Part shown: positions 2,958 through 28,759 of the stretch, piece by piece
Layout of the letters: each line of letters starts with the position of its first letter
Position numbering within the stretch: the stretch's first letter is position 1
From: a virus
Reading direction: 5' to 3' (one strand)
IMG/VR virus record: IMGVR_UViG_3300024346_006511
Span: 92,127-156,126 of that record
DNA length: 64,000 bases
The notes under the pieces: generated by a model
Database searches by the model: none
What the model was told of the DNA's origin: nothing
What the model saw: only the letters and a program-made list of their open reading frames with translations
Program-made: the position numbers and the translations under genes

Positions 2958-2982
2958 AAAAAAAAGCCCCACAAGGGGGCTT
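2958..2982 (-). terminator. Rho-independent terminator after tail tube gene
   Basis: AAGCCCC-CTTGT-GGGGCTT stem followed by a T run on the minus strand. Confidence 0.85.
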
Positions 2983-3009
2983 CTTAATATATAATAAAGT
3001 ATTTTATTC

Positions 3010-5422: not shown

Positions 5423-5677
5423 TTACTTAAGGGAGTTAAACTCTCCAGTTTCTAGATTTACTGTACCTTTTCCGTACTTTTCTTCTAGTGATTTTGATAA
5501 GTTAACTTCTTCATTTCTTAACTTAGCTAAGAAGTCTTCTGCTCTTTCTTGTCTAGCTTCTATATCTAAATTAATTATACCTATTCTCCCGAATTCTTCG
5601 ACGATAGCTATATTTTTTGTTTTAATGTTTTCAAGTGCTTGAATTTCTTCTTGTGCTAATTTAGTTTTTTTTGCCAT
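5423..5677 (-). CDS. Small coiled-coil hypothetical protein
   Basis: 84 aa; ends LEEKYGKGTVNLETGEF; TAATG-coupled to upstream gene. Confidence 0.7.
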   Translation of the reverse strand: MAKKTKLAQEEIQALENIKTKNIAIVEEFGRIGIINLDIEARQERAEDFLAKLRNEEVNLSKSLEEKYGKGTVNLETGEFNSLK

Positions 5678-6312
5678 TACATTTTATTATTAGGTATGAT
5701 TAAATCTGTATCTACTATTATTGGCGTTTTATTATTACTAAACCACTCAGTCCAAAATATACTTCCTTCGTATTCTTTTCCGTACTTCTGTTCTAACGTG
5801 TTATCTAGTTTATACATAGACGCCTCTATATCATTTAATATAAGAAAGTTTTTTTTAAAAGCCAACGAATGACCAGAAAATAATCTTTCATCTATATTCT
5901 TATAGTATACTGAGCCATATAAACAGTCTTCTCTGTTGTAGTCTTTTAATAAAGGTCTCGTAGCTAGTTTAGCTTTATTAAAGTATTTCTGTGTATCACC
6001 TTTAAATTCAATCTTATCTCCTATCAAGTTAGGTTTAAATTTTACTATCTTGTCGTATATATCTATATTAGGTATAAGATCTAACGCTCTATAAGTTGAA
6101 TAAAAATAAGAATAAAGCTTTTTTTCGTACTTAGGAGGATCTACATAACATATCATCTTATTAGTATACTTCCTATATCTTTCAAGTTTATTTAACCATC
6201 TTGTATTATCTCTATCATTCCAGGTATGAACATATAAGTCATTACCTTTAATAAATGGAATTATATTATCGGACAGATCTTTTAAGTAACCTGAGATAAT
6301 TACTGCTTCCAT
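5677..6312 (-). CDS. Hypothetical protein, possibly glycosyltransferase-like
   Basis: 211 aa; AVIISG...LYVHTW and YDKIVKF segments; cluster context. Confidence 0.45.
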   Translation of the reverse strand: MEAVIISGYLKDLSDNIIPFIKGNDLYVHTWNDRDNTRWLNKLERYRKYTNKMICYVDPPKYEKKLYSYFYSTYRALDLIPNIDIYDKIVKFKPNLIGDKIEFKGDTQKYFNKAKLATRPLLKDYNREDCLYGSVYYKNIDERLFSGHSLAFKKNFLILNDIEASMYKLDNTLEQKYGKEYEGSIFWTEWFSNNKTPIIVDTDLIIPNNKM

Positions 6313-7253
6313 GTTTTCATGTCATTGTCATACGCTTGGTACCCTTTATTGAATATCTTAGAAGGGTAATTTTTGTAAGGTAATTGAAGGTGTTTGTTTT
6401 TATTCCAGCTAGACCCGTAACCAAATAAACGATATTGGGGTTTTTCATTTTTTGCTAATTTATCAAAATCTAGATCAGGTTCGCAAAATACATCTTCAAT
6501 GTCTTTGAGGTATTTACTCATCTGTTCTGTGTATAAATTAGTTCCATTTAAATTTAACTCTTTATCTAAATACTTTGCGAATGCTAAATGTTGTGTTGTA
6601 GAAGGATGTGTTTCGTCTTGTCTCTTTCCAGGACCTTCATAATAGTAGTGAGGACGTTCCATAGGTACTCCCCATATAAATTCTTCTACACTTGACAATG
6701 CTTTTGCTTTATTAAAAGCTTCTTTTAGTTTTTCAAATGGATAATATTCTTTTATATAGTCTATATCTTTATTAAAGAAGCTAGTTGAGTATGGTTCTCC
6801 GTAAAAAAGAGAAATCCAAGGGTCTAACATATTAAAGGTAGCAAACTTACATTTAAGGTGCCTGCTAACATCTTTTACTGCTCTTACATAATTAATAAGT
6901 TTATATGCTTCGGCAACTAAATTAAAGTATTTATCGACAACTTTAAGAGGAATATCTTCTTGGTATTCTAAAGTACCTGGAGTTCTAAAGTATATGTCAT
7001 GTCCGTGAATATGGTCCCATCTAGTTATACCTGACCATTGAACTATCACAGTATCGTTCTCAGTAAACTCGTATTTGCTTAGTAAGTGAACAGCAGTATT
7101 AAAGATATATGTGTTTCCTGCGCCTGAAGCTGCTGCATTAATTGTTTCATCAAAGTCTGCTCCTAGAATATCTGCATATGTAGGATAAGCATATTTAGAG
7201 TAACTACATCCGACAATGAACAGTCTTTTCTTATTGTAATCTTGTATTGCCAT
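6300..7253 (-). CDS. SGNH/GDSL-fold protein (acyl esterase or transferase)
   Basis: GCSY block I, G.GN block II, DETHP block V. Confidence 0.65.
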   Translation of the reverse strand: MAIQDYNKKRLFIVGCSYSKYAYPTYADILGADFDETINAAASGAGNTYIFNTAVHLLSKYEFTENDTVIVQWSGITRWDHIHGHDIYFRTPGTLEYQEDIPLKVVDKYFNLVAEAYKLINYVRAVKDVSRHLKCKFATFNMLDPWISLFYGEPYSTSFFNKDIDYIKEYYPFEKLKEAFNKAKALSSVEEFIWGVPMERPHYYYEGPGKRQDETHPSTTQHLAFAKYLDKELNLNGTNLYTEQMSKYLKDIEDVFCEPDLDFDKLAKNEKPQYRLFGYGSSWNKNKHLQLPYKNYPSKIFNKGYQAYDNDMKTWKQ

Positions 7254-8400
7254 AGTGCACCACCTCTATTGATTCATCTTTAGCAGTATATGATCTCCAT
7301 GGATCTAATACTATAGACCCTTCGGGGAATTCATAATCATGATGCTTGCCCATATGTCCTAATAGGTACACCGCTTTGTAGGGTACTGGTTGATCATATT
7401 CTGGTACAATACCTTGTTCAGCACAGAAATGACCTGTAAGTATTGATGTAGAGCCATCTTCATAGTCAACATCTGGTTTGTATGCTTTACCTAAAATTAT
7501 AATTGGTAACTGAGCATTCTTTGCTAAGGTTACTAGTTTATCAGCTAGATTCTTTGCTTGTTTTTCTCTAGCATTCATAATAGCATCGAATAAGTCATAT
7601 CCTATGTCTAAGTTTTCTGCCATATACCTTAGTGCAATATTGTCTCTAGGATGGCAACCTCCTCCATCTCCCATTCCTGCTTTCATATAGGAAGGACCTA
7701 ATATCCTTTGTGTAGATCTTTCGAGTGCGCCTGTTATTACATCTACATTAATATTACCTGATTTTTCAGCTACATCTTGTATCATATTAACTAAAGCTAC
7801 TTTAGTAGATATAAATGTATTGTAGAATATTTTTATTCCTTCTGCTTCATCCCAAGTACCTATTTCATATCTAGTACCTTCGGTAATAAATGTATGATAG
7901 AAATCTAAAAGTAATTTAGCATCTCCTGTTGTAGAACCGTCTTCTGTTCCAATAATAATCATTTCAGGGTTAACCATATCCCATTTTACTGTTCCCATAG
8001 CAATTAAGTATGGGTTATAGATAAACCTACCATTAGGAATTAAATCTATAAAATCTCTTCGTATTGTACCTGGTAAAACTGTAGATATAAGTACTACTAG
8101 TTGTTCCCTGTTAACGTGTTTATTTACTTCTGTAAGTACGTCTTTAACTATTTGGTAGTTAAAATCTTTATTAGGTAAATGTGCTGTAGGGTACCTACCG
8201 TCATAGTCTGGGTGATGAGGTGTTGGTACAGCAATAAAGATAAGTTGTCGATCTTGACATGCGTCTTTAATCGAAGGTACCATTTTAAAATTTTCAGGGG
8301 ATACTGTATTAATATCGTAACCTATTACGTCATGTTTTTCAGCCATGACTTCGGCTGATTCTTTACCGAGTTTGCCAACTCCTATAAATCCTATTTTCAT
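7231..8400 (-). CDS. ugd: UDP-glucose/GDP-mannose 6-dehydrogenase family
   Basis: GxGxxG (GVGKLG), AVPTP, ISTVLPGT, catalytic GGGCHPRD, GKAYKP. Confidence 0.9.
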   Translation of the reverse strand: MKIGFIGVGKLGKESAEVMAEKHDVIGYDINTVSPENFKMVPSIKDACQDRQLIFIAVPTPHHPDYDGRYPTAHLPNKDFNYQIVKDVLTEVNKHVNREQLVVLISTVLPGTIRRDFIDLIPNGRFIYNPYLIAMGTVKWDMVNPEMIIIGTEDGSTTGDAKLLLDFYHTFITEGTRYEIGTWDEAEGIKIFYNTFISTKVALVNMIQDVAEKSGNINVDVITGALERSTQRILGPSYMKAGMGDGGGCHPRDNIALRYMAENLDIGYDLFDAIMNAREKQAKNLADKLVTLAKNAQLPIIILGKAYKPDVDYEDGSTSILTGHFCAEQGIVPEYDQPVPYKAVYLLGHMGKHHDYEFPEGSIVLDPWRSYTAKDESIEVVHYGNTRLQ

Positions 8401-8434
8401 TGAAACTGTATTAATCTGTTATAACAATATATGA

Positions 8435-8442
8435 TATAAATA
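8435..8442 (-). promoter_or_regulatory. Putative late promoter TATTTATA (UDP-sugar dehydrogenase)
   Basis: Only copy seen inside the glycan cluster. Confidence 0.65.
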
Positions 8443-8456
8443 GCTAAAAAGCAACT

Positions 8457-10355
8457 TTAAGCGCGGTTAATGTTACACCTCCAGTATCTATTCTTTCTTT
8501 GATAATGGTAGGCTAAGTGGAAGAACTCTTTATCTGTCATCTCTTCCTTATCGTAATGATCTAATGTAAGTGTTTCCTCTTCAACTCCTAAAGCATGTTT
8601 TACTGAGTCAAGTTTATATGTTCTAGTAAATGGGTATACTCTATCATTAGTATGACACATATCAATATTTAACTCAATAGCATCTGTTGCATCTATTTTT
8701 AGTTTATCTGTACAGAATTTGTTGAGTTCTGATTTAAGTAAGTCTATATTCTTATAAAACACTATACTCGTTGCTCCTTTATATTCCCAGAATACATCAT
8801 CATCACCTAATACCTGTCTACCCCAAAACTCTTGTCTATCAAAAACTGCAGTTAATGAATCTACCGTCTCTTGCAACTCTCTACCGATAAGTGTGTCTGT
8901 ATCCATAAAGTACTCTAACATTTTCTCTATAACGTCTATGTGTTTATATTCGTATTTCGAGTTTAGATACTCTAAGAGATAATGTCCCCAACCGTAATAG
9001 TACATGACTATGAGAAGGTGAGCTAATAAATGACCTCTATATACTTCAATCGGATTCGCTGCATTAGTTCCAATAACACCCCAGGTCTTTTCAACTATAT
9101 AGTCTTCTAAATCATCTACACTTAAGTAAAAAGTATCTAACGGGACGTCTCTAAATTGAAGTCCGTGTTTTTCTATATACTCTGGTTGACCCATTTCAGC
9201 ATTAAATGTTAATACTAAGGGGTGTACCATCAAGAAGTCTTTTTGCCCTAAATCAATTAATCTTTGAATACCATCTTTTAATGAACTGTAGGTTTCTTCT
9301 GGCATTGGCCATATTAGTTCAGAGTAGGTAGGTATATCTTCTTTTCTGTATTTTTCTAAGTATTCAAAAGCAGCATCATATTTAAGGTTTAATCTTCTAG
9401 AAGCATCTAATGTTTCTTGATGTAAAGACTGCATAGCAAAAGTAACTCCTTTAAAGAGTCTAGTTCCTGCTTCTTTATCTAACATTGCTATTTCGTATAT
9501 CCGATCTGAGTTAGCTTTAGCCCATGTTACGTCCCAGAATTTAGGGTACCCATTTTCGAGTTTCTTTTTTATTACGTACTTAGTTATATCTACATCTCTT
9601 GGCATTAATCCCCAATTAGAGTCACATACTGCAACGTATTCTATTTTTCTATCAGACATCCAATCGATCTCTTTCTCGACTCTAGGCATTTCAAAGGTTT
9701 TAATCTTTTGCCAATATAAATCTCCAATATCACAAAAAGTACATCTATAGGGACAACCTCGAAGTGTTTCGTAAGTAACTTGCCACATTTGAGGACCATG
9801 TTCCTTTTCAACTCTTTCCATAATCCAGTCATAAAAACCTGTTAGGATCGGTGAGGGAATTAAATTTAAGTTATCTGCCCTTTGTGGAAGGGGACATAAA
9901 GTACCGCCTTTAGGAAATACATGAGGGATATCATCATATGATTCTCCTTTCAAATATCTTCTGAGGATTTCTTTTGAAGCCTGTTCTCCTTCTCCCATTA
10001 CTGCGATATCAAACATAGGATACTTTTCAAAGAATTCTTTATCTCTTTTATCTACATTTGGTCCACCGGTAATAGTAAGACAATCTGGGTATTTATCTTT
10101 AATTAATTTAGCGAGTACTTTATTATATTCCCAATTCCAGACATAGGAACTTAACATTACTACGTGAGGTTCTTTTTCTAAAGAATCTACATATGTATGT
10201 GGATTTTTCTTTTCTATTAATACGTCTGCTACTTCAAAGTTTTCTTTTACTGCTTTACTTGTACTAGCATACATCCATTGATAGCTAATAGCTACCGGTA
10301 AAAAGCTATTAGGACCATATTTATCCGCTACTTGTATTAAGTATAAGTTTTTCAT
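8457..10355 (-). CDS. Cobalamin-binding radical SAM enzyme (class B methylase-like)
   Basis: N-terminal B12-binding-like domain (SSYVWN, TGGPN, GEGE) followed by RGCPYRCTFC (CxxxCxxC). Confidence 0.85.
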   Translation of the reverse strand: MKNLYLIQVADKYGPNSFLPVAISYQWMYASTSKAVKENFEVADVLIEKKNPHTYVDSLEKEPHVVMLSSYVWNWEYNKVLAKLIKDKYPDCLTITGGPNVDKRDKEFFEKYPMFDIAVMGEGEQASKEILRRYLKGESYDDIPHVFPKGGTLCPLPQRADNLNLIPSPILTGFYDWIMERVEKEHGPQMWQVTYETLRGCPYRCTFCDIGDLYWQKIKTFEMPRVEKEIDWMSDRKIEYVAVCDSNWGLMPRDVDITKYVIKKKLENGYPKFWDVTWAKANSDRIYEIAMLDKEAGTRLFKGVTFAMQSLHQETLDASRRLNLKYDAAFEYLEKYRKEDIPTYSELIWPMPEETYSSLKDGIQRLIDLGQKDFLMVHPLVLTFNAEMGQPEYIEKHGLQFRDVPLDTFYLSVDDLEDYIVEKTWGVIGTNAANPIEVYRGHLLAHLLIVMYYYGWGHYLLEYLNSKYEYKHIDVIEKMLEYFMDTDTLIGRELQETVDSLTAVFDRQEFWGRQVLGDDDVFWEYKGATSIVFYKNIDLLKSELNKFCTDKLKIDATDAIELNIDMCHTNDRVYPFTRTYKLDSVKHALGVEEETLTLDHYDKEEMTDKEFFHLAYHYQRKNRYWRCNINRA

Positions 10356-11683
10356 ATGTCTTTAGAGTACCCTAAGTTGTCGTATATTTTTTTTGTAATG
10401 TTAGTAATAGGTAGAATAACTCCATGAAGATTCTCTTTACCTTTGTATTCTTTAGAGATATACTCTCTAAATACTCTCTTATTATGTATAGCAATAGGAA
10501 TAGACTTTAACTTAAGTTCATTAAGTTCATCATCTGATTTTAATGTAATGCTTTTTAGTAACCTGGTAATAGCAATAACTCTATCAGCTTCAGAAACTAT
10601 CTTATCATAAGATTCGTCCCATAAAGAATCATAAGTCATATATCCCATATCTTTGAGTTTCTCTAAAGAAAACGGTGAACCCATTATTATAAAAGGATGC
10701 CCAACACTAATAGGTTTCCATATTTTTTCTGAGAAAAATATACATCCAGGGTCCATAACAGTTTCTGAAACTACTGATAGGAATGTACTTTCATAATTTG
10801 ATAAAGTAAAGTTTGTTGCTAAATTATCTACAGTTGAGATATCAATACTTCTTTCTCCTTCGCTTCTAAATTTATTAAACGAATTTTCGTTTATTACATT
10901 ACCTGTATAAATGTCTGAGTATCTTAATCTGTTTTTTGGGAAACTTAAACTTATCAATCCTTTGTTTATTATTCTTTCTTGCCACATTAGGTATCCAAAA
11001 AGAAGTCTATGGTTACGTGGCTGTCTGTTGTAAGATAAGAAATATTTTTGAGGATTACTAATTTTAGCATCAAAAGGTACAATTTTTTCTTCATCGACTA
11101 TATACTCCTCAGGTGGATTGAAAAATGTTTCGAATGAGCTGCAACCGTATGCATTTATTTTCAGGTTGTTAGCCTTAACATATGTATCACATATTAAATT
11201 ACCGTGTATTACGCTTACGCTATAATCAGGTAGCTCAGCTTTGATTCTCCATCTTTCAATTATATCTAGTTCAGTGTTTGCAGTTCTAGTATACTTCCCT
11301 TCTGTTGTACATTCAATAATTAAGGCACACTTACCTATCTTAATGTCCTCTAATACAAGTTTAGATATACAAGAAAAACCGGTATCTAAGTTTAATCTAA
11401 AAAAATTATGATTATAAACTCTAATTATGTAGATGTGTTTATTGTCACCTATGTCTTCTATTTCTACGTCCTCATAATCTTCATGGAATGAAAGAGAATA
11501 GTGATGATCGTTATACTTACTTGGATCCTCTATGTATGCATTAATTACATCAGGTGTAAGAGTATGAAGTAGAGTGGGTATTTTCCCACCTTCTTGCATA
11601 TTCCAAGTTCTAGAAGTGCCGTTTGGTCTATTGTGCCCTATTATACTGTCGTAGGGCTCTCTACTACATAATATCTTTTCCAT
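10352..11683 (-). CDS. Putative GT-B glycosyltransferase (GT10-like C-terminal motif), paralog 3
   Basis: FLSYNR.PR.HR and VSET...FSEKIWKPI..GHPF...WDESYD. Confidence 0.55.
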   Translation of the reverse strand: MEKILCSREPYDSIIGHNRPNGTSRTWNMQEGGKIPTLLHTLTPDVINAYIEDPSKYNDHHYSLSFHEDYEDVEIEDIGDNKHIYIIRVYNHNFFRLNLDTGFSCISKLVLEDIKIGKCALIIECTTEGKYTRTANTELDIIERWRIKAELPDYSVSVIHGNLICDTYVKANNLKINAYGCSSFETFFNPPEEYIVDEEKIVPFDAKISNPQKYFLSYNRQPRNHRLLFGYLMWQERIINKGLISLSFPKNRLRYSDIYTGNVINENSFNKFRSEGERSIDISTVDNLATNFTLSNYESTFLSVVSETVMDPGCIFFSEKIWKPISVGHPFIIMGSPFSLEKLKDMGYMTYDSLWDESYDKIVSEADRVIAITRLLKSITLKSDDELNELKLKSIPIAIHNKRVFREYISKEYKGKENLHGVILPITNITKKIYDNLGYSKDI

Positions 11684-17191: not shown

Positions 17192-17193
17192 AA

Positions 17194-21931: not shown

Positions 21932-23288
21932 ACATTTTATCTAATTTAGGAAAAGTCTCTAAGAAATTAGTTCCTCTTCTCTTATCTAATTCATCAACAA
22001 ATATTACAAAGTCTTCTCTATTCTTTTCTTTATCGTAAAGAGCACTATGAGCTTTCGAATAATCGTATATTCGCTTTATCTTTTGTATCTCAACATTTGT
22101 AAAACCATATGCCTCGTGACTAAACTCTTTCTGACCATAGTATAAAGCTTTCTTTGCAGCTTCGAGTATAAGTTCCTTATGCTCTTCTTCCAATATACGA
22201 ACTGAAAGGTGATTAGGCCACCTTAAGTACGAAGTATCTAGTTGAATAGCTGAAATACTGTATCTCTGACCATTGTGGTACTTCTTTTTAATCTCAAATA
22301 TCTTATCTACTAACTCTCCGTAAGTAAAAACAGATAAAGCATTAAAAGTAGCCATAACATTAATCGTTACTTTAGGTAATTCAGTAAGTATCTTTTCTAC
22401 ATTTACCCAGAATTTATCATAATCCAGTCCATACCTAGTATATTCAGCTTGTGACTTAGTAGCTTCGACAGATGTAAATACTACTAATTCTTTTACCTTA
22501 TCGTTTTCACATATGACTTTTGCTTTTTCAATAAACTTATCAATTAAAGCATCGGGTACTCCAAGATTAGTATTAATTGATAGAGCTAACTCTGTGTTAG
22601 GTTCTTCTTGTTCGATTATATAGTCTAATACCTTAAAGGTATCCTTCGCAAGTAGAGGCTCTCCTCCAGTTATTCTGAATGTATGTAGATCTCTGTATAA
22701 ATCTGGCCACCATTTCCAAAATGCATCTACGTAAGGATTATGCTCGGAGTGCTTATACGGCATTTCACCTTTCGCTCTTAATTGTTCTATACCGTTAAAT
22801 TTGGTAGAAGTTGGATATGCTCCATGCTTCTCAATTTCATCAACCCATTTAGATGAGAATTGTGGACCACAGTAAGCACATTTAAAATTACATGTATTTG
22901 AAAAAGATACCTCTACGTAGCGAGGATTAAAATCATCTCTCCAGTTAGCCTTAACGATATCATCATAACTTTTGATAGACCAAGGCTCTGAAGATTTAAA
23001 TACTCTATCTGAAAATGAGTTAGAGTTATCTTCTACGTTCCAACAGTAATTACACTCTTCAGGTCTTTTACCTTCAAGCATCTCTTTCCTCTTAAATTTT
23101 TTAAATTTAGTATTGTGAAGAGCTGTTGGATTACGTTTTATTTCTGCTTCTTTTATTTTATGAGGAGAAGGGTGATGGCAAGAATGAGTCATACCCATAG
23201 ACAGGTGGATAGTAGATTGTGTCCATTTTGCAAGACACATACCACAGCCTACTTTATCTAACTTCCCTTTTACTTCTTCTGATGTCAT
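21915..23288 (-). CDS. Radical SAM enzyme with N-terminal twitch/SPASM-like cysteine cluster, paralog 1
   Basis: CGMCLAKW...SCHH...CNYCW, then CNFKCAYC and TGGEP. Confidence 0.85.
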   Translation of the reverse strand: MTSEEVKGKLDKVGCGMCLAKWTQSTIHLSMGMTHSCHHPSPHKIKEAEIKRNPTALHNTKFKKFKRKEMLEGKRPEECNYCWNVEDNSNSFSDRVFKSSEPWSIKSYDDIVKANWRDDFNPRYVEVSFSNTCNFKCAYCGPQFSSKWVDEIEKHGAYPTSTKFNGIEQLRAKGEMPYKHSEHNPYVDAFWKWWPDLYRDLHTFRITGGEPLLAKDTFKVLDYIIEQEEPNTELALSINTNLGVPDALIDKFIEKAKVICENDKVKELVVFTSVEATKSQAEYTRYGLDYDKFWVNVEKILTELPKVTINVMATFNALSVFTYGELVDKIFEIKKKYHNGQRYSISAIQLDTSYLRWPNHLSVRILEEEHKELILEAAKKALYYGQKEFSHEAYGFTNVEIQKIKRIYDYSKAHSALYDKEKNREDFVIFVDELDKRRGTNFLETFPKLDKMYAKYK

Positions 23289-24700
23289 AGTTTTATATTG
23301 ATCATTTTAGCCCAAGGTGTTAGTATGTCTTCACCTACTAGTTCATATTTAAGTGAGTTTATTCCATCTAATTTATAATCGATTTCATCTTGTTGCATTT
23401 GAAGTACATATCTACGCTCGTTTCTTGCTGTTGTTTCTCCTTTTGCGAACTTTCCGTTAACGATTCCTTCATCTTTGTGAGGTAAACATCTAAATCTACC
23501 GTCAGATCTATAAGGTAATATTGAGTTTGGTATTTTAATGTCCTCTACTTTTGTTTCAGTCATATACTCTTGAAACTCAGTTTGAGGATTTTTAAAATCT
23601 ATATCAATAGTTAACTCGTCTTTAGGTATAGTAGTCTCTAAGTTACTCACCTCTTTAGGTGTTAAAGCTCTTTTCCACGCAAACACCTTAGCAATATCTC
23701 CTTTGAAGAATTTTATAGTACTATCATCCGGTTCTGAAGGTGATGTACCGATATACCATGGCTCTGAACCGTAGTTCTTTAATCTACCTTGAAACTCTAA
23801 TGGTGATTGAGAACCGAATCCTCCTCTAGTATCTACTTCTGAGCCATTAAGGTAGAAGTGTGATTTTCTATCCATCGAATCAAATACAGCAGTCACCCAA
23901 GTCCATTGTTCATCGTATCTTTTTACCCACATATAGTTATGTTGATGAAAGTTGTTCCAATACGTTAACGAAATGGCTCTAGAATTATTAAATCCAATAC
24001 CGTAATCATATCCTTTAACCCTTATAACTGGGTATTCAACATATTTTCTTTCGTTACTACCGATCAAGAATATAGGGTTCTTATCAGGTTGCTGTCTAGC
24101 TCTCATTAATACCGAAACTGTGTGTGATCTAGAGTTTAGGGATCTCATAGGTTTAGTAAACGGTACTTTGATAAATGAATTATCTCCATTAAACCTCTTA
24201 TAGGGTTGAGAGGTGAGAGATTCTTGAATATATGTGTTATTAGTTAGACCTTCTTTATTACATCTCCAAAATAGATCATCGTCTTCCATTCCCCAATCCC
24301 AATATTCATTAGAATATCCATTAGTGGCTTCTACTTGTTCTTTTGAAAATACTACAGCTCCACCAAAATACTCATGGTATTTAAGACCGTAGTTCATTTG
24401 TGATATCTGTGTAGCAATGTGCCTAGGACCATCTTCTGGAAAGGAGTAGTCTGCACCACCACCTTTTTCAGGTATCATATCTATATCATGCCATACAATA
24501 TGTGTACATCCTTCTTCGAAAGCATGTTTAGCAGCAATGTTTTTAGTTGCTCCTCTATTGAATAATTTATCATCTACTTGATGACAAAAGTACATTTGAA
24601 AATCGATATTTTGCTCTTTTAAGTACTTACCTACTTTAGGTATAAACTCGTTAAGGTGCATTTCTCTATTACGATAAGGTACACATACTCCTAATTTCAT
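23285..24700 (-). CDS. GT7 (beta-1,4-galactosyltransferase-like) with inserted LamG domain, paralog 2
   Basis: VPYRNR, FNRG, HDID, YFGG, WGMEDDD; LamG-like middle; C-terminal GRFRCLPH...DGINSLKY. Confidence 0.85.
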   Translation of the reverse strand: MKLGVCVPYRNREMHLNEFIPKVGKYLKEQNIDFQMYFCHQVDDKLFNRGATKNIAAKHAFEEGCTHIVWHDIDMIPEKGGGADYSFPEDGPRHIATQISQMNYGLKYHEYFGGAVVFSKEQVEATNGYSNEYWDWGMEDDDLFWRCNKEGLTNNTYIQESLTSQPYKRFNGDNSFIKVPFTKPMRSLNSRSHTVSVLMRARQQPDKNPIFLIGSNERKYVEYPVIRVKGYDYGIGFNNSRAISLTYWNNFHQHNYMWVKRYDEQWTWVTAVFDSMDRKSHFYLNGSEVDTRGGFGSQSPLEFQGRLKNYGSEPWYIGTSPSEPDDSTIKFFKGDIAKVFAWKRALTPKEVSNLETTIPKDELTIDIDFKNPQTEFQEYMTETKVEDIKIPNSILPYRSDGRFRCLPHKDEGIVNGKFAKGETTARNERRYVLQMQQDEIDYKLDGINSLKYELVGEDILTPWAKMINIKL

Positions 24701-26097
24701 AATTTAACTGTTAATTGGGTTATATTTCTAACATTTGAGTTAGATAGTATCCTATATTTTAATGTAGTTAAGCCATCTTGTTCTAAAGTAGTAGATCCGT
24801 ACATAACTTCATTCATGAACTTTAACTGATTATACCTGGTTGTAATGTCTTTCCATCCTGTTGTCAAGAATCCATTATCCTCGTGATCTAAGGTCTTGTA
24901 ATCACTAGTTCTTCTGAATGGTACTTTAAGTACTCTATGTTTAGGTAAGTCGTATTGAACAACTTCACAGTCTACTATTTGACTATGCTCCTCTAGCTTA
25001 GCTATATCGATTAACTTATACTCTTTTATAAATTTAGCGTCTCCATATGATACTAAATTACCAGCACTTTGGTAGCTTTCAAAGTTATCTGCTAATCCAA
25101 AGTATTTGTTGTTTTGAACAGTAACTATTTCTTCATACGTTAATGCTTTATTCCATACAGCATAGGTATTAATATACCCTTTGAAAAAGTTATTATCTTC
25201 TTCTCTATCTGGGTCTGTACATCCTATATAAGCTTTACCTGCTTTATCGTATAGTCTCATAGGATTTTTTAATACCTCCGTACCTATGTGTTTAGCATTT
25301 TGGTATAATGAAGCAGTGTTTTTCTCTTTATTATATACAAAAGTTAACGTAGTCTTGACATTAGGTACTATATTAGAGTATATAAAATGGTGGTTCTTTT
25401 TGCTATCAAAAAACTCAACAGCAAATCTCCTAAAACTCGTATACATTATATTAAAGTCAAAACCTGGTATGCCAAAGGCTACGTACTTATCTTCTCTCTT
25501 ATTAGAGTCTAATGTATAACCTTTAGGTTCTAATGAAATATGTATAGAAAAATCACCTCTGGTTCTAATCCTATTAGGAACTTCAACATAAGAACTAACT
25601 CCGTTTAATTTTAAAGCTGCTGTGTTAGGGCCAGCATCATTTAGAGGAAGCTCGTCTAGCTTAATTCCTTTAAGTCTACATCTATGCAGTAAGTCATCAT
25701 CTTCAAATCCCCATCCCCAATACCTATTAGAAAAACCATTTATCTTTTTAAAGTCTTCTACTGGAAACATTGTTATGCCTCCAAAGTATTCCTCAAACGG
25801 TATATCTTGTGTAGCTAAATGTACAGGGTGATCAGCGTAAGAATAGTCCACTTTCTTAGGTAACATATCTACGTCGTGAAATACGACATAATCACATCCT
25901 AGTTTTTCTGCCTCTTGAAATCCTATGTTTAAAAGTTTACCTCTATTGAAAGATTGACTATCGTCTTGCTCTACTACTATTAGTTCATAAGGAATTTTTG
26001 CTCCATATAACTTAGCTTGGATAAGCATTTTAAACTTCAAGAGATGATCGTACCTGTCTCTGTAAGGTACAATTACTCCGAGTTTATGTACTGCCAT
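24697..26097 (-). CDS. GT7 (beta-1,4-galactosyltransferase-like) with inserted LamG domain, paralog 1
   Basis: VPYRDR, FNRGKLLNIG, HDVD, NGFSNRYWGWGFEDDD; LamG-like middle; C-terminal DGLTTLKY. Confidence 0.88.
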   Translation of the reverse strand: MAVHKLGVIVPYRDRYDHLLKFKMLIQAKLYGAKIPYELIVVEQDDSQSFNRGKLLNIGFQEAEKLGCDYVVFHDVDMLPKKVDYSYADHPVHLATQDIPFEEYFGGITMFPVEDFKKINGFSNRYWGWGFEDDDLLHRCRLKGIKLDELPLNDAGPNTAALKLNGVSSYVEVPNRIRTRGDFSIHISLEPKGYTLDSNKREDKYVAFGIPGFDFNIMYTSFRRFAVEFFDSKKNHHFIYSNIVPNVKTTLTFVYNKEKNTASLYQNAKHIGTEVLKNPMRLYDKAGKAYIGCTDPDREEDNNFFKGYINTYAVWNKALTYEEIVTVQNNKYFGLADNFESYQSAGNLVSYGDAKFIKEYKLIDIAKLEEHSQIVDCEVVQYDLPKHRVLKVPFRRTSDYKTLDHEDNGFLTTGWKDITTRYNQLKFMNEVMYGSTTLEQDGLTTLKYRILSNSNVRNITQLTVKL

Positions 26098-26303
26098 TAT
26101 TTGTCCTTGCCTTCAGTTAGATTATTATGCCATTCTGATAAGTAAAACTGTATTCTTCCGTCCCAGTCTTCTTTGTCGATTTCTTCAAACCATACAGTTA
26201 GAGCATCTAATGATACAGCGATCTTCTCTAACGCTTTAGTTTTTCTTTCTTCGATTAGAACTTTTTCAGCTTCTAATACTTCTTTGTCGATTTTTGCACT
26301 CAT
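26097..26303 (-). CDS. Small hypothetical protein
   Basis: 68 aa; overlaps both neighbours at stop/start junctions. Confidence 0.65.
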   Translation of the reverse strand: MSAKIDKEVLEAEKVLIEERKTKALEKIAVSLDALTVWFEEIDKEDWDGRIQFYLSEWHNNLTEGKDK

Positions 26304-27139
26304 ATTGTTATTATTAATTTACGTAATTCATCCCAGTGTGGGTAGTCTTTATATTCAATATACGAATTTTCTTTTAAATTAGCAACTAAATATTCGGGTT
26401 TAGTTATATCTATTTTCCAATCTGTTCTTGCAATAGCTCTATACATTTTACTGTACTCCTTAGAGAATGCGTAATCTTTTTTTATTTCAGCAACTTCTAA
26501 CATTCTAGTTAAACATGTACTATCCCATTTAAAGTGATGAACCTGAGTGAATACTTCTTCTACTGGCATTCTTCTTGGGTGGCTAGATCCCCAGCTATTA
26601 GTACCGTCATTAAATGAAGCGTAATGTTGCCCGGGAGTAACTTCTTGATAACCTTTCATTAATGTACATTTATTAGGACAGGCTTTTGACATAGGGTATC
26701 TAAAGAATCCTGCTAAAGGAAATGCTTCGTGAATATTAGTGTCTGCTGTTACTTTAGGAAAAGTACCATCTATACCTATTCTATCTATGAACCCTCCTGT
26801 AACAAAGTCATATCCTTTTCTCTCACATTGCTCGATGATGTCTTCTATAGGTTCAGGGTATACCTGTAATTCATCATCATCTGATACAATCCACCAGTCA
26901 TTTGGTCGTTGACTTTTAACGTAGTTATATAATTCAGTAACTCTTTCCCAATTGTATTTAGCTTCTGTTACAACTAAATATGGTTCGATTCCTAGTGCTT
27001 GGATTTCTTCTAGAATCCCGTCATCATCTGAATGTCTGTAGACAACTACATATGCTTTGTCTATGACATTTTCGTAATGCTTTAACATATGCGGAAGCAT
27101 ATGAGTATTTTTTCCTACTACTGTAACTAAATTAAGCAC
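26300..27139 (-). CDS. GT-A fold glycosyltransferase (GT2-like)
   Basis: MLPHMLKHY, WWIVSDDDEL (DxD), VHHFKW. Confidence 0.7.
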   Translation of the reverse strand: MLNLVTVVGKNTHMLPHMLKHYENVIDKAYVVVYRHSDDDGILEEIQALGIEPYLVVTEAKYNWERVTELYNYVKSQRPNDWWIVSDDDELQVYPEPIEDIIEQCERKGYDFVTGGFIDRIGIDGTFPKVTADTNIHEAFPLAGFFRYPMSKACPNKCTLMKGYQEVTPGQHYASFNDGTNSWGSSHPRRMPVEEVFTQVHHFKWDSTCLTRMLEVAEIKKDYAFSKEYSKMYRAIARTDWKIDITKPEYLVANLKENSYIEYKDYPHWDELRKLIITI

Positions 27140-27902
27140 GTCTAAAAATTGTTAATCCGGTTGAACTTGGTTTTGTATTTAATATCCCATGGTTATGAAA
27201 GTCGAATCTTTGCCATTCATCAGATATTTCACTTATAAACTTAGAAGGTCCGTTTGCAAACTCTTCATGATTGTTTAGATCAGATACATCCTTAGTAACG
27301 ATGTGTTTATTAGCGTATCTTATATCTGTATCGTGAATTGATATAATACCATTAGGGTTTAAAAGTTTACTGTATAAGGTAAAGTCTTGTTTAACATTCT
27401 CATATGAATGTCCTGCGTCGATATGAAGGTAATCTATCTTAATATCCTCTTTGACAAAAAAATCATAATAAGCTTTTTCTGTTGTATCGTTAACTATTCT
27501 AGGGTGAAATATTTTTCTTAAGAAAGAGTCTTCTTTTAACCAATCTACTTCTCCTCCTATGCCGTTGGCAGCATCTACAATAAATGTAGCTCCAATATCT
27601 CCCCAACTAAAGTCTGGTTTACCTTCGAAAATGCCTTGCTCATGTAAATCTATTCTTGCTTGAGTCATTATACGGGGAATAAATCCAGCACCAGAACCTA
27701 AACATACGCAGTTCTTAGCTCTCATATTTTGAATCATAGCATAAATAAGTAACCCATCTCCTAAGTGATAGTCTGTAGCACCGTGGGTCCATCTATACTT
27801 TACAGCATCATGTTCTATAATAATTTTACCGTTCTGATCTTGTTTATAAACTTGATTGTTGGTAATTTTATCAAATACAAAATTTTTATCTACTATACTC
27901 AT
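27132..27902 (-). CDS. Class I SAM-dependent methyltransferase (Methyltransf_24-like)
   Basis: CLGSGAG, IDYLHIDAGHSYENVKQD, GIISIHD. Confidence 0.85.
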   Translation of the reverse strand: MSIVDKNFVFDKITNNQVYKQDQNGKIIIEHDAVKYRWTHGATDYHLGDGLLIYAMIQNMRAKNCVCLGSGAGFIPRIMTQARIDLHEQGIFEGKPDFSWGDIGATFIVDAANGIGGEVDWLKEDSFLRKIFHPRIVNDTTEKAYYDFFVKEDIKIDYLHIDAGHSYENVKQDFTLYSKLLNPNGIISIHDTDIRYANKHIVTKDVSDLNNHEEFANGPSKFISEISDEWQRFDFHNHGILNTKPSSTGLTIFRRA

Positions 27903-28759
27903 TTCTTTGTTAAACTGCTTAGATCTATAAATTTATGAAAATTAATGCAATTACGCAACATTTCTATTTCTACATCGTAGGGATGGTCAGGAGAATTAGT
28001 TTTATACCATTTTTTTAATGGACCATAATGTCTAAACCATTGCCATGAATCTTCAATAGTCCATATACCGTCTGAGTTAACATTGCTCCATTTCCAATTA
28101 TTGCAGTCCCATTCTGTAGAGATTACAGCTCTATGTTCTACTTTATTTTTTACTAGTAAGTGTTTTAAGAGTAGCTGTTCTGCAAATATTAAGTACCTAG
28201 AATTAGGTGCTTTTAAAACAGTAAATTCTTCCATTAACTTAAGACTTAAGTTTGCGTATTCTTGAGTAAATACTGGATCTGGAAGATATAAGAAAGAGAC
28301 GTTAACAGACTCAGTTTTCCATCTTGGCTTATAAGATAGTCCTCTAATTAAAGGATCAAGTGAAGTAGGGTAATAACCTCTACCGAATTCTCTATTAGAA
28401 AATAAAACTTGATCTTTTACTATGTTGTGTTTGAAAGGCTTGAATACTAACGTGTCGCAGTCCATTATAATAACTGGTTCAGTCTGTAAAGCTAATACTT
28501 GAAGTTTAGAACTAGCCCAGAAATTAGTCTTATCAATAGGTCTGTCGTTGAAGTCAATGATTTCTATATTATCGTATAGAGATTGAACTCCAAGTTCTGT
28601 TATGAGTGAATGAGTTAATTCATCACAATATAACCATGTATCATCTTCAGGATGATTTCGTTTCCATAAACTTACTGAGGCCAGCATTAGTAAGGTGTTA
28701 AACTTACTGTAATCTTCTCTCTGTTTATTTATGTTTTCATAAACCCATATTATTTTCAA
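27899..28759 (-). CDS. GT-A fold glycosyltransferase-like protein (DUF6734-like), TTG start
   Basis: FWASSKL...QTEPVIIMDCD (DxD), FAEQLLL. Confidence 0.55.
   Translation of the reverse strand: MKIIWVYENINKQREDYSKFNTLLMLASVSLWKRNHPEDDTWLYCDELTHSLITELGVQSLYDNIEIIDFNDRPIDKTNFWASSKLQVLALQTEPVIIMDCDTLVFKPFKHNIVKDQVLFSNREFGRGYYPTSLDPLIRGLSYKPRWKTESVNVSFLYLPDPVFTQEYANLSLKLMEEFTVLKAPNSRYLIFAEQLLLKHLLVKNKVEHRAVISTEWDCNNWKWSNVNSDGIWTIEDSWQWFRHYGPLKKWYKTNSPDHPYDVEIEMLRNCINFHKFIDLSSLTKK

What the first reader, a model, noticed from the sequence alone, without database searches (positions are those of the whole stretch)
5423..28759. A 23-kb glycan synthesis and tailoring cluster inside the virion operon: candidate virion glycosylation system
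Seen: 23 tightly overlapped genes lie between the fibre genes and the sheath. They include about nine glycosyltransferase-like genes from several folds (2x GT7, GT2-like, DUF6734-like, fucosyltransferase-like, 3x GT10-like, one weak candidate), NDP-sugar enzymes, three radical SAMs, a methyltransferase and two SGNH proteins. I saw no promoter motif or terminator between the fibre promoter (33414) and 8442, and no obvious flippase, polymerase or membrane anchor. Established: Mimiviridae and chloroviruses glycosylate their own fibrils or capsids, and some mycobacteriophages glycosylate capsid and tube with a few GTs. Inference: this is a late, soluble pathway that builds a complex glycan on the Ser/Thr-rich fibres or capsid, at giant-virus scale in a tailed phage.
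Basis: partly seen in the sequence, partly recalled or inferred. Interest (0 to 1): 0.9.

Follow-up and report, generated by a model that had tools for sequence, protein, structure and literature searches.

The report
Hypervariable sugar-building island beside phage tail fibres
An uncultured marine relative of Flavobacterium phage immuto carries 22 soluble sugar-making, sugar-tailoring and sugar-transferring genes between its tail-fibre and tail-sheath genes. The set most likely sugar-coats the virus particle, which has been shown so far only for mycobacteriophages and giant viruses, but the target is unproven.

Summary
Window 5677-28759 (minus strand) carries 22 overlapping genes plus a conserved 68-aa ORF. 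I confirmed two GT7+LamG enzymes, a GT2-like protein, DUF6734, a fucosyltransferase-superfamily lead, three GT-B paralogs of a virus-restricted family, a sugar dehydrogenase, two SDRs, a short DegT, a StrB1-like amidinotransferase, two twitch radical SAMs, a TokK-like B12 radical SAM and a methyltransferase. The two SGNH calls are weak. No product has a membrane segment.

Corrections: 5423-5677 is a backbone gene, "GT10-like" is only generic GT-B, and the promoter-like motif is genome-wide, not late-specific.

New findings:
- Cultured immuto lacks the island.
- The slot between fibres and sheath is hypervariable in the clade: empty, radical-SAM arrays, or other sugar cassettes.
- The order S74-fibre, 18x-aa gene, Ser/Thr-rich 16x-aa gene, DUF6734, MT, GT2, GT7, GT7 is kept in phages whose sheaths are only 50% identical.
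- One LamG-like module sits on both GT7s and, in relatives, on the radical SAM.

Best reading: late cytoplasmic glycosylation of fibre or virion proteins (about 0.5). Rivals are host-envelope glycans, a soluble aminoglycoside-like product and DNA. The acceptor is untested. This scan has already noted the same module in other genomes.

The parts
27899..28759 (-). DUF6734 protein (286 aa from the TTG start). First gene of the island; function unknown, possibly GT-like.
   Evidence: Pfam PF20508 E 7.5e-12, 45.7 bits against cut-off 27. Holds the same first position in G005, G006 and G007.
27132..27902 (-). Methyltransf_24 SAM-dependent methyltransferase.
   Evidence: Pfam PF13578 E 2.7e-10. Conserved order MT24-GT2_4-GT7b-GT7a in 7 or more loci.
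26300..27139 (-). GT2-like glycosyltransferase (Glyco_tranf_2_4).
   Evidence: Pfam PF13704, 28.9 bits against cut-off 27.5. 83% identical in G005.
26097..26303 (-). Conserved 68-aa ORF of unknown function between GT2_4 and GT7b.
   Evidence: 64% identical in G005. Several relatives have a gap of about 200 nt at this place. No Pfam or PHROG match.
24697..26097 (-). GT7b: beta4GalT-like catalytic domain with a LamG-like module.
   Evidence: Pfam Glyco_transf_7N, 7C and Laminin_G_3, all above cut-off. Paralog of GT7a (26% identity, E 1e-47).
23285..24700 (-). GT7a: beta4GalT-like catalytic domain with a LamG/pentraxin-like jellyroll, followed by a C-terminal segment with an invariant His.
   Evidence: Pfam. 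AF2 pLDDT 84. Foldseek: beta4GalT7/T1 at E 3e-13, 32-35% identity, rmsd about 2 A, and pentraxin/LamG hits. Giant-virus GT7-like proteins appear in BFVD. H408 is invariant.
21915..23288 (-). Twitch-domain radical SAM (457 aa).
   Evidence: NCBIfam NF033640, 339.6 bits against cut-off 170. In jumbo relatives it is fused to a LamG-like N-terminus.
21344..21931 (-). Stand-alone LamG-like module (195 aa) between the two radical SAM genes.
   Evidence: hhalign against the GT7 insertion: 97.6%, E 3e-12. Against the N-terminus of the 706-aa radical SAM of L011: 98.2%, E 3.7e-14. dN/dS 0.024.
19821..21344 (-). Twitch-domain radical SAM (507 aa), paralog of 21915-23288.
   Evidence: NF033640, 309 bits. 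38% identical to its paralog. Only cultured-phage hit: Ralstonia jumbo phage RsoM2USA, 49%.
18790..19839 (-). Candidate fucosyltransferase-superfamily glycosyltransferase (349 aa).
   Evidence: Atlas feature search 0.95-0.96 to O-FucT, FUT8_N_cat and NodZ clusters; a lead only. No Pfam, NCBIfam or PHROG match.
18197..18793 (-). Short (198 aa) DegT-type PLP aminotransferase that keeps the PLP lysine and lacks the C-terminal domain.
   Evidence: Pfam PF01041 E 1e-19. Alignment to perosamine synthetase keeps the SF..K lysine. The same short form is 52% identical in cyanophage S-SCSM2R ORF305.
17194..18204 (-). L-arginine-dependent amidinotransferase, StrB1-like.
   Evidence: PDB 1bwd inosamine-phosphate amidinotransferase, E 1.3e-90 over the full length; also HsvA, SxtG and AGAT. 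43% identical to S-SCSM2R ORF309.
16286..17191 (-). SDR epimerase/reductase (301 aa). In jumbo relatives it is fused to the P3 GT-B transferase.
   Evidence: Pfam Epimerase E 4e-19. Fused forms of 706-728 aa.
15274..16293 (-). SDR NDP-sugar epimerase/dehydratase (339 aa).
   Evidence: Pfam Epimerase E 4e-44 and GDP_Man_Dehyd E 3e-27. Below every NCBIfam equivalog cut-off.
13947..15290 (-). P3c, GT-B-fold glycosyltransferase-like paralog.
   Evidence: Paralogy with P3a and P3b (E 1e-15 to 1e-18).
13027..13974 (-). Weak SGNH/GDSL-like protein (315 aa).
   Evidence: Lipase_GDSL E 0.0027, below cut-off. Lies next to P3 genes in several relatives.
11664..13037 (-). P3b, GT-B-fold glycosyltransferase-like protein of a virus-restricted family.
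   Evidence: AF2 pLDDT 87. VIA Z 11.7, and the 31 best chains are all glycosyltransferases, most of them classic GT-B enzymes. 452 relatives, all unnamed. At least 536 IMG/VR loci, 1 of 185,579 species genomes, 0 cultured phages. Usually adjacent to the sugar dehydrogenase.
10352..11683 (-). P3a, GT-B paralog.
   Evidence: 32% identical to P3b, E 3e-64.
8457..10355 (-). Cobalamin-dependent radical SAM C-methyltransferase.
   Evidence: Pfam B12-binding and Radical_SAM. PDB TokK E 2e-68 and CysS E 2e-42. KedN5 subfamily E 2.5e-61, below its cut-off.
7231..8400 (-). NDP-sugar 6-dehydrogenase (UDP-glucose dehydrogenase-like). Preceded by the promoter-like motif at 8435-8442.
   Evidence: Pfam UDPG_MGDP_dh_N and central domain. 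TIGR03026 at 147.6 bits, below its cut-off of 189.8. Motif.
6300..7253 (-). Unknown 317-aa protein, possibly SGNH-like.
   Evidence: Only DUF6071 at E 0.01. Homologs recur beside the dehydrogenase.
5677..6312 (-). Unknown 211-aa protein; last gene of the island.
   Evidence: No family match. Conserved in relatives at 41-73% identity. dN/dS 0.12.
5423..5677 (-). 84-aa backbone gene; NOT part of the island.
   Evidence: 46% identical to the immuto gene just upstream of its sheath. Present in island-free relatives.
28782..29261 (-). Ser/Thr-rich (32%) 159-aa protein directly upstream of the island; candidate acceptor or fibre accessory.
   Evidence: Composition. Homolog of the same size, place and composition in G005, G006 and G007.
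29266..29814 (-). 182-aa protein between the fibre and the 159-aa gene.
   Evidence: Homologs at the same place: 52% in G005, 28% in G006 and G007.
29828..33385 (-). 1185-aa repeat-rich tail fibre with a C-terminal S74 intramolecular chaperone.
   Evidence: Pfam Peptidase_S74 E 6e-15. Sequence repeats. S74 fibres lie 1-15 kb from the island in G006-G010.
3534..5276 (-). Tail sheath; downstream boundary of the slot.
   Evidence: Pfam Phage_sheath_1 and 1C. 60% identical to immuto's sheath.

Best explanation
The island is a phage-encoded, entirely cytoplasmic pathway that builds a complex, heavily tailored glycan on a macromolecular acceptor made late in infection. The most likely acceptors are the neighbouring tail-fibre proteins or the small Ser/Thr-rich 159-aa protein, and possibly other virion proteins.

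Proposed flow (inferred):
1. Host UDP-glucose or a similar precursor is oxidised by the NDP-sugar dehydrogenase and reshaped by the two SDRs.
2. A twitch radical SAM oxidises a sugar hydroxyl, by analogy with BtrN. The short DegT aminates the product and the StrB1-like enzyme amidinates it, giving a guanidino sugar.
3. About eight transferases (two GT7, GT2-like, a FucT-like candidate, three GT-B paralogs, perhaps DUF6734) assemble the chain.
4. The O-methyltransferase, the B12 radical SAM C-methyltransferase and the SGNH-like proteins decorate it.
5. The LamG-like module on both GT7 enzymes, which also stands alone or is fused to the radical SAM, steers these enzymes to the same growing glycoconjugate. 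At least part of the tailoring therefore happens after attachment.

The locus behaves like a serotype locus. Its content is exchanged between related phages, and its left arm stays welded to the fibre genes.

Shown: gene content, solubility, conservation, linkage, shared LamG module. Inferred: every chemical step and the acceptor.
For: 1. All 22 products are soluble, and the genome holds no polytopic membrane protein that could be a flippase, polymerase or ligase. It also has no Bac_transf initiating transferase.

2. The island is on the same strand as the fibre, sheath and tube genes. Nineteen of 22 junctions overlap. No coding-strand terminator-like site occurs until 2985-2961, after the tube gene.

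3. The cassette S74-fibre, 175-182 aa, Ser/Thr-rich 159-163 aa, DUF6734, MT24, GT2_4, GT7b, GT7a is conserved in the window, G005, G006 and G007. G007 is a complete 179-kb genome whose sheath is only 50% identical, and its island again lies between fibre and sheath. S74 fibres lie within 1-15 kb of the island in G008, G009 and G010.

4. The same LamG-like module is found in GT7a, GT7b and the stand-alone 195-aa ORF, and is fused to the radical SAM in L011. This points to a shared macromolecular substrate.

5. The slot is hypervariable among phages with 61-85% identical sheaths. It can be empty, hold arrays of twitch radical SAMs, or hold a NeuB/CMP-sugar cassette. This matches the clade-specific fibril glycan clusters of Megavirinae (PMC10117803).

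6. Purifying selection acts on 14 of 15 island genes tested (dN/dS 0.02-0.22; u317 gave no estimate because dS was saturated). Island dS is higher than in the flanking sheath and tube, which suggests exchange.

7. Short contigs of both island and fibre genes occur in four marine metatranscriptome libraries from three studies. One contig bridges GT7b, the 68-aa ORF and GT2_4. This is weak, because DNA carry-over cannot be excluded.

8. Precedent: phage-encoded transferases glycosylate the capsid and tail tube of mycobacteriophages (Freeman et al. 2023, as cited in PMC12619734).
Against: - No virion glycan has been measured.
- Gene position is circumstantial. Fibre genes and a receptor-modifying island could be linked for host-range reasons alone.
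- In one jumbo-phage fragment (G004) the sheath lies about 90 kb from the module, so linkage to virion genes is not universal.
- The fibre-enriched [ST]-G-S tripeptide does not vary in the sheath with island presence.
- Peripheral LPS and O-antigen transferases of bacteria are also soluble, so lack of membrane segments does not exclude action on host lipid-linked intermediates.
- Late timing is not shown.
Confidence: 0.5

Rival explanations
1. Host envelope glycan remodelling. The soluble transferases act at the inner face of the membrane on host undecaprenyl-linked LPS, capsule or glycoprotein intermediates. Host flippases and ligases then change the infected cell's surface, for example to stop superinfection or to keep progeny from sticking to debris. 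The link to fibre genes would then reflect co-selection of receptor binding and receptor masking.
For: - Sugar clusters in lytic marine phages have been read this way since P-SSM2 (24 'LPS genes'; PMC1079782).
- Relatives' islands include GT25 (an LPS family) and NeuB/CMP-sugar genes typical of surface polysaccharides.
- The same genome carries an operon of exported envelope proteins (earlier finding e1-5787737).
- Bacterial core and O-antigen transferases are likewise free of membrane segments.
Against: - No initiating phosphoglycosyltransferase, flippase, polymerase, ligase or ABC exporter is present anywhere in the 94%-complete genome.
- The island is embedded in the virion gene block of a phage with no sign of lysogeny in the window.
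- The P3 GT-B family is essentially absent from cellular genomes (1 of 185,579). That is odd for enzymes working on host-type lipid-linked glycans.
- LamG modules fused to enzymes suggest a soluble macromolecular target.
Confidence: 0.2
2. A soluble small molecule or free oligosaccharide. The island would be an aminoglycoside-like biosynthetic cluster whose product is released at lysis or acts inside the cell, for instance against competing phages or on host translation.
For: - StrB1-like amidinotransferase (E 1e-90).
- Twitch radical SAMs of the broad class that includes BtrN.
- DegT aminotransferase.
- B12 radical SAM methyltransferase.
- Carbamoyltransferase in relatives.
- The authors of cyanophage S-SCSM2R called the homologous trio 'antibiotic synthesis genes' (PMC12801897).
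Against: - No cyclitol synthase (dehydroquinate-synthase-like or inositol-phosphate synthase) appears among the island's Pfam results.
- About eight transferases are far more than known aminoglycoside pathways need.
- There is no exporter or self-resistance gene.
- LamG targeting modules and the conserved linkage to fibre genes are unexplained by this reading.
Confidence: 0.1
3. DNA hypermodification. The transferases glycosylate a modified base in phage DNA to evade restriction.
For: The P3 model's tied structural neighbours include T4 beta- and alpha-glucosyltransferases and the DNA arabinosyltransferase of phage HY126. HY126 carries arabinosylated 5-hydroxycytosine DNA according to PMC13326640. 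Phages are known to hang poly-sugars on DNA.
Against: - The genome already has a separate 7-deazaguanine (formyl-preQ1) DNA modification cluster elsewhere (earlier finding e1-5787748; not re-tested here).
- No thymidylate-synthase-family hydroxylase or hydroxymethylase is present in the 94%-complete genome.
- No Tet_JBP match was found, but the control was silent, so this is inconclusive.
- The island sits in the virion block, not with replication genes.
- Known DNA arabinosylation sugar pathways differ from this one.
Confidence: 0.05

Closest known systems
Mycobacteriophage virion glycosylation (Che8, Corndog, Myrna; Freeman et al. 2023, Cell Host Microbe; known here only through citation in PMC12619734)
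   Same: Phage-encoded soluble glycosyltransferases sit next to structural genes. The proposed action is on virion proteins in the cytoplasm.
   Different: Those systems have a few transferases and use host sugar nucleotides. This island has 22 genes with its own sugar-nucleotide tailoring: amidination, radical SAM chemistry, and C- and O-methylation. Its enzyme families are unrelated (GT7+LamG and a virus-only GT-B family). The host is a Gram-negative marine Bacteroidota-type bacterium. No glycan has been demonstrated here.
Megavirinae (Mimivirus) fibril glycosylation gene clusters and chlorovirus capsid glycosylation (PMC10117803, PMC9614988)
   Same: Virus-encoded sugar-nucleotide pathways for rare, bacterial-like amino and methylated sugars are clustered with transferases. 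Cluster content is clade-specific. GT7-like proteins also occur in Megaviridae.
   Different: This is a tailed phage of 156 kb, not a giant virus of eukaryotes. The island is welded to tail-fibre genes. It contains twitch and B12 radical SAM enzymes and an amidinotransferase, which to my knowledge have not been reported in the giant-virus clusters.
'LPS gene' clusters of T4-like cyanophages (P-SSM2, 24 genes; PMC1079782) and the GT/short-DegT/radical SAM/amidinotransferase cluster of S-SCSM2R (PMC12801897)
   Same: These are large sugar epimerase, transferase and synthase clusters in lytic marine myophages, of unproven function. S-SCSM2R shares the short DegT (52%) and the amidinotransferase (43%).
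   Different: The cyanophage clusters lie in hypervariable non-structural regions. No cultured phage record matches the GT7+LamG or P3 proteins.
Bacterial O-antigen, capsule and flagellin glycosylation islands
   Same: The logic is that of a serotype locus. Conserved sugar-nucleotide genes sit beside fast-diverging transferases, and whole cassettes are swapped at one chromosomal slot.
   Different: There is no initiating transferase, flippase, polymerase or ligase. The core transferase family is virus-restricted.

Membership tests
Phage virion protein glycosylation system (mycobacteriophage type) | Phage-encoded glycosyltransferases located with virion structural genes | tested here: met
   The island lies between the fibre and sheath genes on the same strand. 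The same place is kept in G005 and G007.
Phage virion protein glycosylation system (mycobacteriophage type) | Glycan covalently attached to capsid, tail or fibre proteins | not testable with these tools
   Needs glycoproteomics or glycan staining of virions.
Phage virion protein glycosylation system (mycobacteriophage type) | Sequence homology of the transferases to the Che8/Corndog enzymes | not tested
   tblastn of GT7a and P3b against 50,697 phage records (INPHARED, Aug 2025) gave no match. I did not check whether that collection holds Che8 or Corndog, and no direct comparison with their enzymes was made.
Giant-virus-type autonomous glycosylation cluster | Virus-encoded sugar-nucleotide modifying enzymes clustered with transferases | tested here: met
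   Dehydrogenase, two SDRs, aminotransferase and amidinotransferase together with about eight GT-like genes.
Giant-virus-type autonomous glycosylation cluster | Clade-specific variation of cluster content | tested here: met
   The slot's content differs among immuto-like contigs.
Wzx/Wzy- or ABC-dependent surface polysaccharide locus | Initiating polyprenyl-phosphate glycosyltransferase | tested here: not met
   No Bac_transf match in the genome, with a positive control. No such Pfam hit in the island. The WecA-type family PF00953 was not searched separately. The only ORFs with 4 membrane-like segments are DUF6580 and an unassigned 368-aa protein.
Wzx/Wzy- or ABC-dependent surface polysaccharide locus | Flippase, polymerase or exporter with many membrane spans | tested here: not met
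   No ORF in 156 kb has more than 4 hydrophobic 19-residue windows.
Phage DNA glycosylation system | Enzyme that makes a hydroxylated or hydroxymethylated pyrimidine (thymidylate synthase homolog or TET/JBP) | tested here: not met
   PF00303 is absent, with a positive control. PF12851 is absent, but the control was silent, so that part is inconclusive.
Aminoglycoside-type biosynthetic gene cluster | Cyclitol-forming enzyme (2-deoxy-scyllo-inosose synthase or inositol-phosphate synthase) | tested here: not met
   No such Pfam family among the 22 island proteins, even at E up to 10 for the unassigned ones.
Aminoglycoside-type biosynthetic gene cluster | StrB1-type amidinotransferase | tested here: met
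   1bwd, E 1.3e-90, full length.
CAZy GT7 (beta4-galactosyltransferase-like) | GT7 N- and C-terminal catalytic regions with the DxD motif and fold | tested here: met
   Pfam 7N and 7C above cut-off in both proteins. HD.D and EDDD are invariant. Foldseek to beta4GalT7/T1 at E 3e-13.
CAZy GT10 (alpha1,3-fucosyltransferase) for the three P3 paralogs | Specific similarity to GT10 above other GT-B families | tested here: inconclusive
   GT10 chains score Z 10.2-10.9, tied with many GT-B families at Z 10-11.7. No Pfam hit. Atlas gives 0.79 only. An invariant SEK motif is present.
NCBIfam NF033640 twitch-domain radical SAM | Score above the curated cut-off | tested here: met
   309 and 340 bits against a cut-off of 170.

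The most novel reading that the evidence does not exclude
The slot between fibre and sheath is a phage 'glycotype' locus: a swappable cassette that sets the sugar coat of the receptor-binding fibres. In this cassette, lectin-like LamG modules dock GT7 transferases and twitch radical SAM enzymes onto the protein-bound glycan, so radical chemistry edits sugars after attachment. The resulting coat would be zwitterionic (uronic acid plus guanidino sugar) and C- and O-alkylated, serving to evade host or grazer recognition or to tune adsorption.
Probability: 0.2. Interest if true: 0.9.

Novelty: new variant of a known kind. Interest (0 to 1): 0.7.

Why it matters
Virion glycosylation by phage-encoded enzymes has been shown experimentally only in mycobacteriophages. 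Autonomous viral glycan synthesis has been shown only in giant viruses. This island would extend both to abundant marine phages of Bacteroidota-type hosts.

- The phage is held by at least 14 marine DNA runs.
- The P3 family recurs in at least 536 viral contigs.

If true, phage particles in the sea carry variable, phage-made sugar coats. That bears on adsorption, host range, aggregation, grazing and the chemistry of viral organic matter.

The island also points to untested enzymology: a virus-restricted GT-B family, LamG-tagged GT7 and twitch radical SAM enzymes, a half-size DegT, and a sugar amidinotransferase.

The 20-year-old habit of calling such clusters 'LPS genes' becomes directly testable.

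Tried and rejected
Synteny was taken from IMG/VR loci instead.
- Megablast of the island against cultured phages gave no match.
- tblastn of P3b and GT7a against 50,697 phage records gave no match.
- A profile search of the P3 family against PDB sequences found nothing meaningful.
- PHROGs gave no match for ten unassigned proteins. NCBIfam and relaxed Pfam left 5677-6312, 6300-7253 and the 68-aa ORF unassigned.
- Sigma-70 promoter scans were below shuffle expectation and are uninformative for this host type.
- Sequon test: [ST]-G-S is enriched in fibre proteins. The 1640-aa protein has 28 against 7 expected, and SGS over all outer proteins is 32 against 8.2. In sheath orthologs the count is the same with and without the island (3.9 against 4.5). 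I therefore do not use it as support.
- Complex prediction of the LamG-like 195-aa protein with the 159-aa Ser/Thr-rich protein gave no verdict (score 0.01).
- Sheath adjacency in jumbo fragments: only one of four had a detectable sheath, and it lay far from the module. These records are 33-48% complete.
- RNA-library contigs cannot rank expression or give timing.
- Parts of the 20-kb stretch without RNA contigs are not evidence of silence.

Full report
WHERE WE ARE. The window is bases 92127-156126 of a 156,126-bp IMG/VR viral contig, estimated 94% complete. The nearest cultured relative is Flavobacterium phage vB_FspM_immuto, with a sheath 60% identical. At least 14 marine metagenome runs hold the island-fibre stretch almost letter for letter. 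All genes of the region lie on the minus strand.

THE OBSERVATION. From 28759 down to 5423 there are 22 ORFs of 84-632 aa and a conserved 68-aa ORF at 26097-26303. Nineteen of 22 junctions are overlaps.

Pfam, NCBIfam, PDB sequence search and two structure models give the following, in transcription order:
- DUF6734
- Methyltransf_24
- Glyco_tranf_2_4
- the 68-aa ORF
- GT7b and GT7a (Glyco_transf_7N and 7C plus Laminin_G_3)
- twitch radical SAM
- a 195-aa LamG-like protein
- twitch radical SAM
- a 349-aa fucosyltransferase-superfamily candidate
- a 198-aa DegT
- a StrB1-like amidinotransferase
- two SDRs
- P3c
- a weak SGNH protein
- P3b and P3a
- a TokK/CysS-like B12 radical SAM
- an NDP-sugar dehydrogenase
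- two unknowns

These assignments rest.

The three P3 paralogs fold as GT-B (pLDDT 87). The 31 best structural neighbours are all glycosyltransferases, most of them classic GT-B enzymes, at Z up to 11.7. GT10 fucosyltransferases are tied with many others. GT7a's first 155 residues superpose on beta4GalT7/T1 (E 3e-13, 32-35% identity), and the middle is a LamG/pentraxin jellyroll.

None of the products has a membrane-like segment.
- 'GT10-like' is no more than generic GT-B.
- The SGNH calls are weak.
- Gene 5423-5677 is a backbone gene that immuto also has just before its sheath.

THE ISLAND IS AN INSERT IN A VARIABLE SLOT. Window and immuto are collinear from the major capsid protein to the tube. 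Immuto has only about 2.4 kb of small genes (lysozyme and others) where the window has 23 kb.

I looked at 50 immuto-like IMG/VR contigs (sheath 61-85% identical) that have at least 2.5 kb upstream of the sheath. The same slot shows several states:
- empty (L130, L149, L164);
- versions of the dehydrogenase/P3 arm;
- only DUF6734;
- arrays of five to eight twitch radical SAM paralogs (L120, L123, L127).

In L126 the slot holds a different sugar pathway altogether: NeuB, a CMP-sugar cytidylyltransferase, an aminotransferase and a SPASM radical SAM. In L159 it holds a nucleotidyltransferase/mannose-6-phosphate isomerase set. So the slot behaves like a serotype locus.

THE MODULE IS OLD, CONSERVED AND VIRUS-RESTRICTED.
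- The P3 family has 452 relatives at E up to 1e-5, all unnamed. Some are fused to an NDP-sugar epimerase.
- It is found in at least 536 IMG/VR loci, in 1 of 185,579 species genomes and in no cultured phage record.
- In 29 of 79 loci, five or more island gene families co-occur. The order is conserved: MT24, GT2_4, GT7b, GT7a, radical SAM, LamG, radical SAM, u349, short DegT, amidinotransferase, SDR, P3, dehydrogenase. This includes fragments of jumbo phages of about 330 kb.
- Relatives add a carbamoyltransferase, a full-length DegT, GDSL proteins, DUF5672, GT25 and a cytidylyltransferase.
- Against the closest ortholog set (L003), 14 island genes have dN/dS 0.02-0.22. One, u317, gave no estimate because dS was saturated.
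- Island dS (0.5-2.2) exceeds that of the flanking sheath and tube (0.18-0.35). The transferases diverge most. The pattern is purifying selection combined with exchange.

LINKAGE TO THE FIBRE. G005 (139 kb, 84% complete) is fully syntenic from the 1640-aa fibre-like protein to the sheath. In G006 and G007 the order is S74-fibre, a 175-aa homolog of the window's 182-aa protein, and a 163-aa protein with 31-32% Ser+Thr that is homologous to the window's 159-aa protein (E 1e-5). Then follow DUF6734, MT24, GT2_4, GT7b and GT7a.

G007 is a complete 179-kb genome with terminal repeats. Its sheath is only 50% identical to the window's, and it lies directly after the island. So the arrangement fibre, island, sheath predates the split from immuto, which has lost it or never gained it. 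In G008, G009 and G010 the only S74-bearing fibre gene also lies 1-15 kb from the island. In the one jumbo fragment where a sheath was found, it is about 90 kb away.

A SHARED LECTIN-LIKE MODULE. The 195-aa ORF wedged between the two radical SAM genes is homologous to the LamG-like insertion of the GT7 pair (hhalign 97.6%, E 3e-12). In the jumbo relative L011 the same module is the N-terminus of the 706-aa radical SAM (98.2%, E 3.7e-14). Four enzymes carrying one binding module argues for a common macromolecular substrate. It also argues for radical SAM action on the assembled glycoconjugate rather than only on free sugar nucleotides.

WHAT THE CHEMISTRY SUGGESTS (inference).
- Dehydrogenase plus SDRs: uronic acid or derived sugars. 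The fusion of the SDR to P3 and the near-constant P3-dehydrogenase adjacency suggest that P3b transfers that product.
- Twitch radical SAM (the class that includes BtrN, from general knowledge), short DegT and StrB1-like amidinotransferase would perform oxidation, amination and amidination, giving a guanidino sugar.
- Methyltransf_24 and a TokK/CysS-type B12 enzyme would perform O-methylation and C-methylation.

The homologous short DegT and amidinotransferase of cyanophage S-SCSM2R sit among five transferases. That paper calls them 'antibiotic synthesis genes' of unclear purpose.

WHICH ACCEPTOR? These points favour a cytoplasmic macromolecule made late, and the fibres or the 159-aa protein are the obvious candidates:
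- The proteins are soluble, and the genome has no initiating transferase, flippase, polymerase or ligase.
- The island sits in the virion block without a terminator.
- The linkage to the fibre is conserved.
- The LamG module is shared.

Short contigs of island and fibre genes occur in four metatranscriptome libraries of three studies. This is only weak evidence of transcription.

It is absent for 25 kb, from 33410 to 8442. But it occurs all over the genome, so it says nothing about timing.

Evidence against DNA as acceptor:
- There is no thymidylate-synthase-family enzyme.
- A separate deazaguanine DNA modification cluster exists elsewhere in the genome.

Evidence against a small molecule:
- There is no cyclitol synthase.
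- There are too many transferases.
- The LamG modules and fibre linkage go unexplained.

The envelope reading (the classical 'LPS genes' idea) stays alive, because peripheral transferases need no membrane segment and this phage also encodes exported envelope proteins.

A fibre-enriched [ST]-G-S tripeptide did not vary with island presence in sheath orthologs. A complex prediction of the LamG protein with the 159-aa protein gave no verdict. Neither result is used as evidence.

COMPARISON AND NOVELTY. The system works like the autonomous glycosylation clusters of Megavirinae, which are clade-specific and make rare sugars. It also works like mycobacteriophage virion glycosylation. It is organised like a bacterial serotype locus. 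It is not a member of the surface-polysaccharide, DNA-glycosylation or aminoglycoside classes, because defining features of each were tested and not met.

Large sugar clusters in lytic marine myophages have been known since 2005, so size alone is not new. The following are new to my knowledge and in the papers I could search:
- the conserved weld to fibre genes;
- cassette swapping at one slot;
- the LamG-tagged GT7 and radical SAM set;
- the virus-only GT-B family;
- the amidinotransferase branch.

This scan has already flagged the same module in other genomes.

VERDICT. The finding is worth an experiment.

Noticed in passing
L120, L123, L127, L117, L111, L105 (upstream of the sheath): In related phages the same slot holds tandem arrays of five to eight divergent twitch radical SAM paralogs (22-60% identity to the window's pair), sometimes with few or no transferases.
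   Followed up: partly
L126:281-9658 and L159:612-7703: Other immuto-like phages carry different sugar cassettes in the same slot. L126 has NeuB, a CMP-sugar cytidylyltransferase, a class I/II aminotransferase, a SPASM radical SAM and a 2-hydroxyacid dehydrogenase. L159 has a nucleotidyltransferase/mannose-6-phosphate isomerase set.
   Followed up: partly
window 26097-26303: A 68-aa ORF lies between GT2_4 and GT7b. It is 64% identical in G005, and more distant relatives have a gap of similar size there. It matches no family.
   Followed up: partly
whole genome; in the window at 1850, 2916, 3512, 5306, 5363, 8435, 33414, 33820, 42520, 45326, 46061, 48944, 53078, 54999, 63149: The octamer TATAAATA on the + strand (TATTTATA on the coding strand) occurs 34 times in the genome, 28 of them in the 7% that is intergenic, 17-90 nt upstream of start codons. 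It is probably the phage's or host's general promoter element, not a late-specific one.
   Followed up: partly
window 37542-42464, 36721-37527, 34073-35209: The tripeptide [ST]-G-S is strongly over-represented in the 1640-aa fibre-like protein (28 against 7 expected from shuffles) and in two smaller fibre proteins. It is absent from all 21 island enzymes.
   Followed up: partly
window 18197-18793; L083:6281-6868: A half-length DegT (about 198 aa, PLP lysine kept, no C-terminal domain) is conserved as such in this clade, in jumbo relatives (228 aa) and in cyanophage S-SCSM2R, where it is annotated as AHBA synthase. It is unclear how it works without the C-terminal domain.
   Followed up: partly
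L087:10001-12256: The only cellular-genome hit of the P3 family is a P3 plus sugar-dehydrogenase pair on a 136-kb contig of a Pyrinomonadaceae MAG. I did not check whether that contig is viral.
   Followed up: no
window 2961-2985 (minus strand): A strong intrinsic-terminator-like hairpin (10-bp stem, 5 GC pairs, T-run) lies just after the tube gene. It is the first such site downstream of the fibre promoter region.
   Followed up: no
L082 (Ralstonia phage RsoM2USA, record 126846-128228): The only cultured phage with a close twitch radical SAM homolog (49% identity) is a 344-kb Ralstonia jumbo phage. All of its neighbouring genes are annotated as hypothetical.
   Followed up: no
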